DNA from: a plasmid
Direction: 5' to 3' (one strand)
DNA length: 64,000 nucleotides
Sequence record: NZ_CP019209.1
The notes under the pieces were generated by a model that did no database searches, was not told the DNA's origin, and saw only the letters and a program-made list of their open reading frames with translations. Numbering within the stretch: the stretch's first letter is position 1; each line of letters opens with the position of its first letter. The position numbers and the translations under genes are program-made. Of the stretch, positions 37,171 to 37,699 are shown piece by piece.

Positions 37171-37263
37171 TTAAAATATGTGCTTTTGTTAGAAAAATCA
37201 ATACATAAATTATCATATCTGTATATGTCATTTAGGTATTTCAGTTATGTTATAATAGTTTTG

Positions 37264-37485
37264 CTGTCTGCTACCCCGGCCTAATCTGGCAAGGGGAGGA
37301 GGAGATATAATGAAATACCTTTTTGATTTTGTTTTTGCAATCAAGCCACTTGCAGATGTAGTGTGCAGTTACCTCTGCAAATGGCTTGATTGCAAAATTG
37401 CCAAAAAAGACAGTAAGCCTACCCGTTAATTCTATAATATAGAAACGTAAAAAAAACCCCATCAGCCTGCACGCTGATGGGGTTT
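37264..37485 (+). ncRNA. Putative toxin mRNA (RNA I analogue) of a par/Fst-like type I TA locus
   Basis: Extended -10 TGtTATAAT at 37248-37256, structured 5' UTR, SD GGAGGAGGAG, 39-codon ORF, internal 22-bp inverted repeat, shared terminator 37449-37485. Confidence 0.5.
37310..37429 (+). CDS. Fst/Ldr-like type I toxin peptide, 39 aa (MKYLFDFVFAIKPLADVVCSYLCKWLDCKIAKKDSKPTR)
   Basis: Strong SD 7 nt upstream; hydrophobic helix with a conserved-position Pro, WL then charged tail, as in Fst and PepA1. Not in the ORF track (shorter than the cutoff). Confidence 0.5.
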   Translation: MKYLFDFVFAIKPLADVVCSYLCKWLDCKIAKKDSKPTR

Positions 37486-37512
37486 GGTGATATAATGAAA
37501 TACCTCTTTGTT
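37449..37512 (-). ncRNA. Putative antitoxin sRNA (RNA II analogue), about 65 nt
   Basis: Minus-strand extended -10 TGgTATAAT (37520-37528). Its 5' end is complementary to the direct repeat covering the toxin SD/start. The terminator hairpin (ccccatcagc/gctgatgggg) is followed by T8 on the minus strand. Confidence 0.45.
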
Positions 37513-37699
37513 ACTCATAATTATACCATAATTAGTCACGAATGCAACCAATAGAAAAAACTACTTAGAACGGTAGATCATCGCTAATAACAATGCATTG
37601 TCCACCAAATGGATTTTGTGAAGCATTAAATACATTGTTATTAATTGTCGCTGCTTTTAACTAGGCCTCTCCCCTTCTATTATAAAAGAAGATATATAT

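What the first reader, a model, noticed from the sequence alone, without database searches (positions are those of the whole stretch)
37230..37550. Unannotated par/Fst-like type I toxin-antitoxin locus between the par and repA regions
- **Toxin peptide.** A 39-codon ORF (37310-37429: MKYLFDFVFAIKPLADVVCSYLCKWLDCKIAKKDSKPTR) with a very strong SD (GGAGGAGGAG) is absent from the ORF track. The peptide has the Fst/PepA1 pattern: one hydrophobic helix with a Pro near its start, a WL, then a charged tail.
- **Convergent promoters.** Two extended -10 promoters face each other, TGtTATAAT on the plus strand at 37248-37256 and TGgTATAAT on the minus strand at 37520-37528. They flank a shared hairpin terminator (37457-37482) that has an A8 run upstream and T's downstream, so it is bidirectional and stronger for the minus strand.
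- **Direct repeats.** A 23-bp direct repeat, gatataatgaaatacct(t/c)tttg, lies on both sides at 37304-37326 and 37489-37511. Convergent transcription would make the roughly 65-nt minus-strand RNA complementary to the SD/start region of the roughly 220-nt plus-strand RNA. This is the architecture of pAD1 par (RNA I about 210 nt, RNA II about 65 nt, DRa/DRb repeats).
- **Mirror ORF.** A 22-bp inverted repeat inside the ORF explains why the opposite-strand 63-aa ORF (37271-37462) encodes a mirror-like peptide.
Basis: partly seen in the sequence, partly recalled or inferred. Interest (0 to 1): 0.7.

Follow-up and report, generated by a model that had tools for sequence, protein, structure and literature searches.

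The report
Unannotated par-like RNA-controlled toxin module
This is a small, unannotated plasmid-borne gene pair, a short membrane-type peptide whose translation is blocked by a convergent antisense RNA, built like the classic pAD1 par "addiction" module and present on hundreds of Enterococcus faecium megaplasmids; it is a new member of a known kind, not a new mechanism.

Summary
Window 37248-37547 holds two convergent extended -10 promoters, a shared hairpin terminator, an SD-preceded 39-codon ORF, and a 22-25-nt direct repeat of the start-codon region beyond the terminator.

The 80 % homologue on E. faecium Aus0004_p1 has published dRNA-seq evidence: a 225-nt RNA and a convergent 74-nt RNA, each starting 7 nt after the corresponding -10 box. 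They were listed only as intergenic sRNAs.

The scan returned 59 homologous loci from Firmicutes and other gut and oral taxa (50 non-identical ones analysed), plus about 450 plasmid records. These keep the SD-ORF (24-39 aa, invariant Y-x-CKWLD), the terminator and a lineage-specific, co-varying start-region repeat (z 5-13). The opposite-strand "mirror" ORF, which is the one usually annotated (pLG1-0002), is not conserved. It is a by-product of a covarying RNA hairpin.

The plus-strand RNA matches Rfam SpF66 above threshold, so that "sRNA" family is really this toxin mRNA.

Kinship of the peptide to Fst/Ldr rests on the signature (helix-Trp-charged tail; SxxxG with the Fst spacing in relatives), not on significant sequence scores. 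Toxicity and plasmid stabilisation are untested. Verdict: a new member of a known kind, of moderate interest.

The parts
37248..37256 (+). Extended -10 promoter of the toxin mRNA (RNA I), TGtTATAAT; weak -35
   Evidence: Read. Conserved in all Enterococcus and Lactococcus homologues. An extended -10 lies 48-60 nt upstream of the start in 32 of 50 family loci. In Aus0004_p1 the mapped TSS is 7 nt after the homologous box.
37263..37489 (+). RNA I, the toxin mRNA (about 227 nt)
   Evidence: Ends transferred from the dRNA-seq transcript sRNA_128 of Aus0004_p1 (TSS 42035, 3' end 41816; PMC7724050 Suppl. Table 7). Rfam RF02442 SpF66_sRNA match at 37270-37496, 53.3 bits against gathering score 42. 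Predicted MFE -90.4 kcal/mol.
37293..37304 (+). Shine-Dalgarno region GGGGAGGAGGAG, 5 nt before the AUG; 5' arm of a conserved SD/AUG hairpin
   Evidence: A strong SD (AAGGAGGTG-like) is present in nearly all family loci. The hairpin pairing the SD with codons 3-6 is 91 % paired, with 3 pairs showing compensatory change.
37310..37429 (+). Toxin ORF, 39 aa: MKYLFDFVFAIKPLADVVCSYLCKWLDCKIAKKDSKPTR
   Evidence: The ORF is kept open with an SD in 59 loci. Y-x-CKWLD is invariant. Substitutions at codon positions 1/2/3 are 24/8/36. The indel relative to homologues is in frame, 6 nt.
37301..37326 (+). Direct repeat copy 1 (target site): 3' part of the SD, the AUG and the first 5 codons
   Evidence: Predicted duplex with the RNA II 5' end covers 37300-37326 at -32.2 kcal/mol.
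37333..37397 (+). Long imperfect hairpin inside the ORF (codons 8-30); source of the mirror ORF on the other strand
   Evidence: Self-complementarity and fold. In 18 Lactobacillales homologues it is 98 % paired, with 7 pairs showing compensatory change. Lactococcus has TCTTGGTCA/TGACCAAGA where the window has GCAATC/GATTGC.
37454..37485 (.). Shared bidirectional intrinsic terminator (stem 37457-37466 / 37473-37482, loop CTGCAC); second region of RNA I-RNA II complementarity
   Evidence: The homologous terminator is annotated at 41820-41851 in the Aus0004 data, which maps to window 37485-37453. A strong hairpin follows the stop in nearly all family loci.
37486..37511 (+). Direct repeat copy 2, which encodes the 5' end of RNA II on the opposite strand
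   Evidence: The single T/C difference from copy 1 becomes a G.U wobble in the RNA duplex.
37438..37512 (-). RNA II, the antisense antitoxin RNA (about 75 nt); does not overlap the ORF
   Evidence: Ends transferred from sRNA_127 of Aus0004_p1 (TSS 41793, 3' end 41866). The fold is an unpaired or weakly paired 5' tail plus the terminator hairpin.
37520..37547 (-). RNA II promoter: extended -10 TGgTATAAT (37528-37520) and -35-like TTGCAT (37547-37542), 16-nt spacer
   Evidence: Read. The block AATGCAACCAATAG is conserved in all Enterococcus copies. An extended -10 on the opposite strand lies just past repeat 2 in 36 of 50 loci.
37271..37462 (-). Mirror ORF (63 aa), the feature usually annotated (pLG1-0002); judged not a gene
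   Evidence: Annotated as hypothetical on more than 1000 contigs. Its ATG lies inside the terminator stem with no SD. The stop-free run shrinks to 22-30 codons in streptococcal homologues. The substitution pattern favours the plus frame.

Best explanation
The locus is a par-like (Fst/RNA II-type) type I toxin-antitoxin module.

**How it is proposed to work**
- A roughly 227-nt mRNA (RNA I, 37263-37489, plus strand) encodes a 39-aa peptide made of a hydrophobic helix, a Trp and a charged tail.
- A convergent antisense RNA of about 75 nt (RNA II, 37512-37438, minus strand) starts inside a second copy of the start-codon region and ends at the shared terminator.
- Because the two promoters read towards each other across a direct repeat, the 5' end of RNA II is complementary to the end of the SD, the AUG and codons 1-5 of RNA I. 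The terminator hairpins are complementary as well.
- Pairing blocks ribosome binding.
- Within RNA I, an SD/AUG hairpin and a long intra-ORF hairpin further restrain translation.
- If the plasmid is lost and the short RNA decays faster than the mRNA, the peptide is made and harms the membrane, which selects against plasmid-free cells.

**Shown**
- The sequence architecture.
- Its conservation and co-variation across genera.
- Both transcripts, with exact TSSs, in an 80 % homologue.

**Inferred**
- Translational repression by the duplex.
- Different RNA half-lives.
- Toxicity of the peptide.
- Plasmid stabilisation.
For: **Architecture in the window**
-.

**Experiment on a homologue**
- Aus0004_p1 dRNA-seq lists sRNA_128 (225 nt, TSS 42035) and the convergent sRNA_127 (74 nt, TSS 41793, own terminator). 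Both are among the 15 most abundant predicted sRNAs.
- Each TSS is 7 nt after the extended -10 box I located (PMC7724050).

**Family-wide conservation**
- The scan returned 59 loci across Enterococcus, Streptococcus, Granulicatella, Veillonella, Selenomonas, Lachnospiraceae and Ruminococcus. They keep an SD plus a 24-39-aa ORF with invariant Y-x-CKWLD.
- A 12-26-nt copy of the start region recurs 50-110 nt after the stop. Its sequence is lineage-specific (z 5-13; upstream controls score 5-8).
- Opposing extended -10 boxes and strong hairpins recur.

**RNA modelling**
- RNA II 5' end with the RNA I translation start: -32.2 kcal/mol against -11.0 +/- 2.4 for shuffles.
- The SD hairpin and ORF hairpin are supported by covariation: 92 % paired against 35-47 % when partners are slid, and 0 of 500 shuffles reach the score.

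**Paralogues**
- Three copies on the same type of megaplasmid have orthogonal repeats: cognate -29 to -33 kcal/mol, non-cognate -10 to -19.

**Match to published definitions**
- T1TAdb states that only the Fst/RNAII and SprA1 families have a 3'-overlapping antisense RNA that pairs outside the overlap and outside the ORF (PMC8594479).
- Relatives carry SxxxG with a G-to-W spacing of 9, as in Fst-EF0409.

**Plasmid bias**
- About 450 plasmid records carry it, including small streptococcal plasmids.
Against: - **No direct test.** Nothing tests toxicity, RNA half-lives or plasmid stabilisation for any member of this CKWLD family.
- **No curated HMM hit.** Neither Pfam nor NCBIfam recognises the window peptide. 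Its relatives give only sub-threshold Ldr_toxin hits (6 of 33).
- **Weak profile similarity to Fst.** Fst-EF0409 scores p about 0.01 and LdrD p about 0.003, while Fst-pAD1 and PepA1 are not significant.
- **Atypical window peptide.** It lacks the [PDST]xxxG motif and the near-invariant His. Its helix is less hydrophobic (KD 1.49, with D6, K12 and D16 inside) than Fst (2.2).
- **Architectural differences from pAD1 par.** There is one repeat rather than DRa plus DRb. The terminator loop has no YUNR U-turn. The 5' upstream helix is only 78 % supported.
- **Rfam antitoxin model.** The Fst antitoxin model does not hit RNA II.
- **Transcript evidence is indirect.** It comes from a paralogous copy that is 80 % identical, not from the window copy.
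Confidence: 0.8

Rival explanations
1. The RNA pair is real and antisense-regulated, but the peptide is not a toxin. It would be a small membrane or amphipathic peptide with another role, or the window copy would be an attenuated, decaying variant. In that case the module is not an addiction system.
For: - The window peptide's helix is only moderately hydrophobic, with three charged residues inside.
- It carries a lineage-specific K-P insertion and has lost the near-invariant His.
- The whole Lactobacillales branch has an acidic residue where relatives have Gly.
- Many family members sit on large contigs that may be chromosomal.
- Weaver's review notes that chromosomal Fst loci may have stress or metabolic roles.
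Against: - The window variant is at least 99 % identical in 232 plasmids, so it is maintained.
- The tight multi-layer repression (antisense RNA, SD hairpin, ORF hairpin) conserved across genera is the hallmark of a product that is harmful when made.
- The helix-Trp-charged-tail signature is that of known toxins.
- A pneumococcal Fst homologue with the same locus layout was toxic.
Confidence: 0.12
2. The two RNAs are regulatory sRNAs serving the neighbouring replicon, for example copy-number or partition control of repA 1.3 kb downstream. The small ORF would be incidental.
For: - The locus lies between ISEfa4 and repA (RepA_N), in a region rich in palindromes.
- RepA_N plasmids are known to use antisense RNAs for rep control (general knowledge).
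- The published study and Rfam both treat the RNAs as non-coding sRNAs.
Against: - Homologous loci occur in unrelated contexts: next to ssb/AbiE, near xerS, on 5-kb streptococcal plasmids and on large contigs.
- The ORF, its SD and its CKWLD motif are conserved at the protein level, with a third-position bias.
- The antisense RNA targets the locus's own translation start, not repA.
Confidence: 0.04
3. The real gene is the 63-aa minus-strand ORF (37271-37462), as annotated in most GenBank records (pLG1-0002).
For: - It is the longest ORF in the region and is called on more than 1000 contigs.
- It is stop-free in close Enterococcus relatives.
Against: - Its start codon lies in the terminator stem with no SD.
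- Most of it lies outside the mapped minus-strand transcript (RNA II reaches only about 37438).
- The stop-free run falls to 22-30 codons in other genera.
- Substitutions favour the plus frame.
- Its similarity to the plus-strand peptide is explained by a covarying RNA hairpin.
Confidence: 0.02

Closest known systems
par of Enterococcus faecalis plasmid pAD1 (Fst toxin mRNA RNA I / antitoxin RNA II) and its par-like homologues
   Same: - Convergent promoters and a shared bidirectional intrinsic terminator.
- A short antisense RNA (about 65-75 nt) that overlaps only the 3' end of a roughly 210-225-nt mRNA and not the ORF.
- Inhibitory pairing provided by direct DNA repeats lying over the SD and start codon.
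- An intramolecular stem-loop sequestering the SD.
- A small helix-plus-charged-tail peptide.
- A plasmid location next to a RepA_N replicon.
   Different: - One 22-25-nt repeat instead of two (DRa, DRb).
- No YUNR U-turn in the terminator loop.
- An additional long hairpin inside the ORF.
- The upstream helix is not clearly supported.
- The peptide shares no significant sequence similarity with Fst-pAD1 and has Trp where Fst-pAD1 has Val.
- Rfam's Fst antitoxin model does not match RNA II.
Fst/Ldr superfamily of type I toxins (Fst-EF0409, pneumococcal Fst-A/B, PepA1, LdrD)
   Same: - The superfamily signature defined by Fozo 2010 and Weaver 2020: a TM helix, a conserved Trp, then a charged C-terminus.
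- Half of the relatives carry SxxxG with the same G-to-W spacing of 9 as PIFVG...W in Fst-EF0409.
- The faint Ldr_toxin Pfam hits align exactly this segment.
   Different: - The invariant Y-x-CKWLD block is specific to this clade.
- The window peptide and the whole Lactobacillales branch lack the [PDST]xxxG motif (A-I-x-A-E/D instead).
- No curated HMM reaches threshold.
Rfam RF02442 'Streptococcus sRNA SpF66', and sRNA_127/sRNA_128 of E. faecium Aus0004 (Michaux et al. 2020)
   Same: - The window RNA I matches RF02442 over its full length, above the gathering score.
- So do homologues from S. mitis, Veillonella and Cuneatibacter.
- sRNA_128 and sRNA_127 are the RNA I and RNA II of the 80 % paralogue.
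   Different: - These entries are catalogued as non-coding or intergenic sRNAs of unknown function.
- Here the SpF66-type RNA is read as a toxin mRNA. Its consensus encodes ...ADVIAGI...FVCKWLDGKE in frame.
- The short RNA is read as its antitoxin.
SprA1/SprA1AS (PepA1) of Staphylococcus aureus
   Same: The antisense RNA overlaps the 3' end, but represses translation through a separate, non-overlapping complementary region at the translation start (T1TAdb description).
   Different: - Different peptide sequence.
- PepA1 (sequence recalled from memory) shows no significant profile match.

Membership tests
par-like (Fst/RNA II-type) type I TA locus | Convergent promoters producing a roughly 200-nt mRNA and a roughly 65-75-nt antisense RNA | tested here: met
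   Extended -10 boxes on both strands, conserved across the family. In the 80 % homologue, dRNA-seq TSSs lie 7 nt after each box, with transcripts of 225 and 74 nt.
par-like (Fst/RNA II-type) type I TA locus | Shared bidirectional intrinsic terminator; the RNAs overlap only at their 3' ends and not over the ORF | tested here: met
   Hairpin at 37454-37485 with A8 and T runs. RNA II maps to 37512-37438, and the ORF ends at 37429.
par-like (Fst/RNA II-type) type I TA locus | Direct repeats (DRa, DRb) transcribed in opposite directions, giving complementarity over the SD and start codon | tested here: met
   One 22-25-nt repeat rather than two. z = 12.4 in the window. Lineage-specific, co-varying repeats in about 45 loci. 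Duplex -32 kcal/mol, z -8.8.
par-like (Fst/RNA II-type) type I TA locus | Intramolecular stem-loop in RNA I that sequesters the SD (5'-SL) | tested here: met
   SD/AUG hairpin 91 % paired in 18 homologues, with 3 pairs showing compensatory change. The prediction was not probed experimentally.
par-like (Fst/RNA II-type) type I TA locus | Upstream helix sequestering the 5' end of RNA I | tested here: inconclusive
   GCUGUCU:AGACAGU is predicted but only 78 % paired across homologues. S. mitis has UCGGU:ACCGA at the same place, while L004 breaks a pair.
par-like (Fst/RNA II-type) type I TA locus | YUNR U-turn in the RNA I terminator loop that starts the kissing complex | tested here: not met
   The loop is CUGCAC, with no YUNR. 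Weaver 2020 states that not all par homologues have this motif.
par-like (Fst/RNA II-type) type I TA locus | Peptide toxic when over-expressed; RNA II less stable than RNA I; locus stabilises a plasmid | not testable with these tools
   Needs induction, rifampicin-chase and plasmid-retention experiments.
Fst/Ldr toxin superfamily | Predicted TM helix, then a conserved Trp, then a highly charged C-terminus | tested here: met
   Hydrophobic stretch 4-22, W25, and a tail with 7 of 14 residues charged. The helix is less hydrophobic than Fst (KD 1.49 against 2.2).
Fst/Ldr toxin superfamily | [P/D/S/T]-x-x-x-G(C) motif within the TM (present in the majority of members) | tested here: not met
   The window peptide has A-I-K-P-L-A-D-V at this place. 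19 of the 38 unique family peptides have SxxxG with a G-to-W spacing of 9, as in Fst-EF0409.
Fst/Ldr toxin superfamily | Recognition by curated HMMs (Pfam PF13955 Fst_toxin, PF13940 Ldr_toxin; NCBIfam) | tested here: not met
   No hit for the window peptide at E <= 10. Ldr_toxin is sub-threshold in 6 of 33 relatives. As a control, Fst-pAD1 (22.8 bits) and Fst-EF0409 (12.6 bits) also miss the Fst_toxin cut-off of 36, so the test has little power.
Fst/Ldr toxin superfamily | Statistically supported sequence homology to known members | tested here: inconclusive
   Family profile scored against known toxins, with 3000 shuffles of each as the null: Fst-EF0409 p about 0.011, LdrD p about 0.003, Fst-pAD1 and PepA1 not significant. 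The profile finds no solved Fst or PepA1 chain.
Rfam RF02442 SpF66_sRNA | Covariance-model score at or above the gathering score (42 bits) | tested here: met
   53.3 bits, E 3.9e-11, full-length match at 37270-37496 on the plus strand. 7 of 13 homologous loci also pass.
Rfam Fst antitoxin RNA model (fstAT) | Covariance-model match of RNA II | tested here: not met
   No such match on the minus strand at E <= 10 in the window, nor at gathering level in 13 homologous loci.

The most novel reading that the evidence does not exclude
The CKWLD peptides may form a distinct, so far unnamed clade of RNA-II-controlled toxins that spans Bacilli, Clostridia and Negativicutes. On pLG1-type megaplasmids, up to three co-resident copies with mutually orthogonal antisense 'addresses' sit next to the replicon, the ssb/AbiE region and xerS. 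Each copy would then guard its own plasmid segment against deletion (segmental addiction) rather than acting redundantly. In addition, the Lactobacillales branch, with an acidic residue in mid-helix, might act by a mechanism other than simple membrane insertion.
Probability: 0.15. Interest if true: 0.6.

Novelty: new member of a known kind. Interest (0 to 1): 0.4.

Why it matters
- **Clinical relevance.** pLG1-type megaplasmids are major carriers of fitness, colonisation and resistance traits in hospital E. faecium. Surveys of their maintenance functions rely on type II TA catalogues and miss this module, which is unannotated in RefSeq records and present at 95 % identity or more in about 360 of about 450 matching plasmids.
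- **Reinterpreted database entries.** Recognising the module reassigns two abundant 'sRNAs of unknown function' in the Aus0004 transcriptome, and a whole Rfam family (SpF66), to a toxin mRNA and its antitoxin.
- **Annotation error.** It flags a widely propagated spurious CDS (pLG1-0002).
- **Experimental value.** It offers a natural set of three co-resident, apparently orthogonal antisense pairs for studying specificity in type I TA systems.
- **Limits.** It does not reveal a new mechanism.

Tried and rejected
- **Pfam and NCBIfam scans of the peptide and the mirror ORF**: nothing useful.
- **phmmer against 1.84 billion representatives** found only 9 weak hits, because such ORFs are rarely called.
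- **Family profile against PDB sequences** found no Fst or PepA1 chain.
- **Paralogues inside the window:** none. The extra 'places per record' lie elsewhere on the megaplasmid.
- **Literature searches.** 'SpF66' returned only malaria-vaccine papers. 'CKWLD' found nothing relevant.
- **Papers not held.** Fozo 2010 supplements, Weaver 2009 and the pLG1 paper are not in the library. I therefore could not check whether the CKWLD clade or the pLG1 locus was already listed there, and K. E. Weaver is a co-author of the pLG1 paper.
- **SpF66 and pneumococcal Fst.** I could not confirm that SpF66 corresponds to the experimentally validated pneumococcal Fst-A/B loci. This rests on my translation of the Rfam consensus (a DVIAG motif) and on Weaver's remark about a DXXXG pneumococcal clade.
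- **Rejected readings.** The mirror ORF as a gene, and a replicon-control antisense RNA, for the reasons given under the rival explanations.
- **tRNA scan of the region:** none found.
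Full report
**1. Observation**

- TGtTATAAT on the plus strand at 37248-37256.
- TGgTATAAT on the minus strand at 37528-37520.
- GGGGAGGAGGAG at 37293-37304, five bases before the ATG of a 39-codon ORF at 37310-37429.
- A GC-rich hairpin at 37457-37482, extendable to 37454-37485, flanked by A8 upstream and TTT downstream. The terminator scan calls it on the minus strand.
- A direct repeat of the start-codon region at 37304-37326 and 37489-37511. Self-BLAST extends it to 25 nt with two mismatches.

The repeat scores z = 12.4 against shuffles, versus 7 for an upstream control.

The inverted repeat inside the ORF is really a 65-nt imperfect hairpin at 37333-37397.

**2. Where the sequence comes from**

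- The 361-bp region is at least 99 % identical in 232 plasmid records and matches 452 in all. Of these, 448 are from Enterococcus, mostly 150-380-kb conjugative E. faecium megaplasmids of the pLG1/RepA_N type. Nearly all records have no feature annotated under it.
- The neighbours are a RelE/ParE-AbrB type II pair, ISEfa4 (tnpA/tnpB) upstream, and repA 1.3 kb downstream.
- When anything is annotated here, it is usually the 63-64-aa minus-strand ORF ('pLG1-0002', more than 1000 contigs). The 39-aa ORF is called on only about 25 contigs. Both are labelled hypothetical.

**3. Which strand codes**

- Homologues at 95, 93, 80 and 77 % identity (E. hirae, E. durans, Aus0004_p1, Lactococcus raffinolactis) all keep the plus-strand ORF with its SD. 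They differ from the window by an in-frame 6-nt indel.
- A back-translated scan of one genome per species returned 59 loci in Enterococcus, eight or more Streptococcus species, Granulicatella, Veillonella, Selenomonas, Lachnospiraceae, Ruminococcus and others. Each has an AAGGAGGTG-like SD and a 24-39-aa ORF.
- In the alignment of 33 unique peptides, Y-x-C-K-W-L-D is invariant.
- The minus-strand stop-free run is about 60 codons only in close Enterococcus relatives and 22-30 elsewhere.
- Substitutions fall 24/8/36 on plus-frame codon positions 1/2/3.
- The mirror ORF therefore reflects a conserved RNA hairpin and is not a gene.

**4. Is the antisense architecture conserved?**

- In about 45 of 52 non-identical loci, a 12-26-nt copy of the start-codon region recurs 50-110 nt after the stop (score 10-19, z 5-13; upstream controls 5-8). 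The failures were loci where my first start-codon choice was wrong.
- The repeat sequence differs from lineage to lineage, but the two copies always match. That is what selection for RNA-RNA pairing predicts.
- An extended -10 lies 48-60 nt upstream of the start in 32 of 50 loci.
- An opposing extended -10 lies just beyond the second repeat in 36 of 50.
- Almost every locus has a strong hairpin in between.
- Inferred RNA I lengths are 190-260 nt, with 36-48-nt leaders.

**5. Experimental transcripts**

The Aus0004 single-nucleotide RNA map (PMC7724050) lists two transcripts on plasmid p1 (NC_017032.1), which carries the 80 % homologue:
- sRNA_128: 41816-42040, minus strand, TSS 42035, 225 nt. 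Its Rfam annotation is SpF66.
- sRNA_127: 41793-41866, plus strand, TSS 41793, 74 nt, with terminator 41820-41851.

They rank 13th and 15th in that table. The two TSSs are exactly 7 nt downstream of the two extended -10 boxes I located in that locus. The paper treats them as intergenic sRNAs and reports no TA-related Rfam hit for E. faecium.

Transferred by alignment, the window transcripts are RNA I 37263-37489 and RNA II 37512-37438.

**6. RNA modelling**

- The 5' 30 nt of RNA II form a near-continuous 25-bp duplex with RNA I at 37300-37326, covering the end of the SD, the AUG and five codons. The energy is -32.2 kcal/mol against -11.0 +/- 2.4 for shuffles. The single T/C difference between the repeats becomes a G.U pair.
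- The terminator region gives a second, fully complementary stretch.
- A consensus fold of 18 Lactobacillales RNA I sequences recovers an SD/AUG hairpin and the long intra-ORF hairpin.
- On the named structure, 92.1 % of cells pair, against 35-47 % when partners are slid by 1-3 columns. The covariation score is 0.377 against 0.05-0.12, and 0 of 500 shuffles reach it. Ten pairs in these two elements show compensatory changes.
- A helix between the 5' end and the 3' part of the ORF (GCUGUCU:AGACAGU) is predicted but only 78 % supported.
- Caveat: the structure was derived from the same sequences, and coding constraints may contribute.

**7. Relation to Fst**

The published definitions are:
- For the locus: convergent promoters, a bidirectional terminator, direct repeats over the translation start, an SD-sequestering stem-loop, an upstream helix, and sometimes a U-turn.
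- For the toxin: a TM helix, a conserved Trp, a charged tail, and in the majority a [PDST]xxxG motif.

The locus-level features are met, with three exceptions. There is one repeat instead of two, the upstream helix is inconclusive, and there is no U-turn.

At the peptide level:
- The helix-Trp-charged-tail signature is met.
- 19 of 38 relatives carry SxxxG with the same G-to-W spacing (9) as Fst-EF0409.
- The window peptide and the Lactobacillales branch lack the motif.
- Curated HMMs do not recognise the peptide. This test is weak, because authentic Fst-pAD1 and Fst-EF0409 also miss Pfam's Fst_toxin cut-off.
- A calibrated profile test gives p about 0.01 for Fst-EF0409 and about 0.003 for LdrD, and nothing for Fst-pAD1 or PepA1. 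The LdrD and PepA1 sequences were recalled from memory.

I therefore file the locus as par-like by architecture. I treat the peptide as carrying the Fst/Ldr signature without proven homology.

**8. Rfam SpF66**

- The window RNA I matches RF02442 at 53.3 bits against a gathering score of 42.
- Homologues from an S. mitis plasmid (115 bits), Veillonella, Cuneatibacter and others also pass. No locus hits an Fst-antitoxin model.
- The SpF66 consensus printed translates in frame to ...ADVIAGI...FVCKWLDGKE-stop. It has a DxxxG motif and the same G-to-W spacing. This matches Weaver's description of a DXXXG pneumococcal clade.
- Fozo et al. showed that a pneumococcal Fst homologue with a 65-75-nt 3' antisense RNA is toxic. 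The identity of SpF66 with those loci is my inference and is not verified.

**9. Paralogues**

pLG1-type plasmids carry up to three copies:
- The window type near repA.
- The Aus0004_p1 type next to ssb/AbiEii/topB.
- A third type near xerS.

Leaders and 3' halves are nearly identical, but each copy has its own matched repeat. Predicted cognate duplexes are -29 to -33 kcal/mol and non-cognate ones -10 to -19.

**10. Uncertainties**

- Toxicity, RNA half-lives and plasmid stabilisation are untested for any CKWLD member.
- The window peptide is atypical. It has a K-P insertion, whose 6 nt (AAGCCA) also lengthen the RNA hairpin. It has lost the near-invariant His. Its helix has a KD mean of 1.49, with D6, K12 and D16 inside, against 2.2 for Fst.
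- I found no prior description in the accessible literature. The pLG1 paper, Weaver 2009 and the Fozo supplements could not be read.

**11. Verdict**

This is a real, strongly supported, unannotated par-like type I toxin-antitoxin module. It is a new member of a known kind. Its practical value lies in annotating E. faecium megaplasmids and in reinterpreting Rfam SpF66 and the Aus0004 sRNA_127/128 pair.

Noticed in passing
window 23014-23032, 33708-33726, 37147-37165, 37847-37865, 38112-38130 (plus an imperfect copy near 37740-37758): The palindrome ACTACC-N7-GGTAGT occurs five times, against 0.01 expected by chance. Several copies lie between ISEfa4 and repA and flank the TA locus, and some were also flagged as terminator-like hairpins. 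They could be operator, centromere or terminator sites. Their function is unknown.
   Followed up: partly
window 36575-36706 (+): There is a sub-threshold Rfam match to Enterococcus sRNA Ref70 (32 bits against a gathering score of 115). It starts 11 nt after the stop of the ISEfa4 tnpB gene (35407-36564) and may be the TnpB-associated guide RNA region of this IS200/IS605 element.
   Followed up: no
window 34064-34636 (-): A type II toxin-antitoxin pair (105-aa RelE/ParE-family toxin and 84-aa AbrB-type antitoxin) lies just upstream of ISEfa4. The replicon region therefore carries at least two unrelated addiction-type modules.
   Followed up: partly
window 37271-37462 (-): The 63-64-aa 'hypothetical protein' annotated in many GenBank and UniRef records (for example pLG1-0002, on more than 1000 contigs) is most likely a spurious CDS created by the RNA hairpin inside the toxin ORF.
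   Followed up: yes
L067:2380-2700 (NZ_CP085907.1, about 47.4 kb) and L068:2380-2680 (NZ_LR135198.1, about 103.5 kb): The same type of megaplasmid carries two further paralogous copies of the module, next to ssb/AbiEii/topB and near xerS. Their start-region repeats have diverged and are predicted not to cross-pair.
   Followed up: yes
Rfam RF02442 (SpF66_sRNA); loci L031, L015, L027, L038, L002, L013, L068: This Rfam family, typed as 'Gene; sRNA', matches full-length toxin mRNAs of the family from Streptococcus to Veillonella, and its consensus contains an SD and an in-frame CKWLD ORF. It appears to be a protein-coding type I toxin mRNA and not a non-coding sRNA.
   Followed up: partly
Pfam PF13955 (Fst_toxin): The curated cut-off of 36 bits is not reached by the founding sequences Fst-pAD1 (22.8 bits) or Fst-EF0409 (12.6 bits) taken from PMC8147318. 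A negative Pfam result therefore cannot exclude Fst-family membership.
   Followed up: yes
window 37343-37348 (AAGCCA) within the ORF: This is a 6-nt insertion specific to the window, E. durans and E. lactis variants. It adds K12-P13 to the peptide and also extends the intra-ORF RNA hairpin by pairing with TGGCTT (37383-37388). A similar AAGCC element occurs again at 37416-37420, which hints at competing RNA structures.
   Followed up: partly
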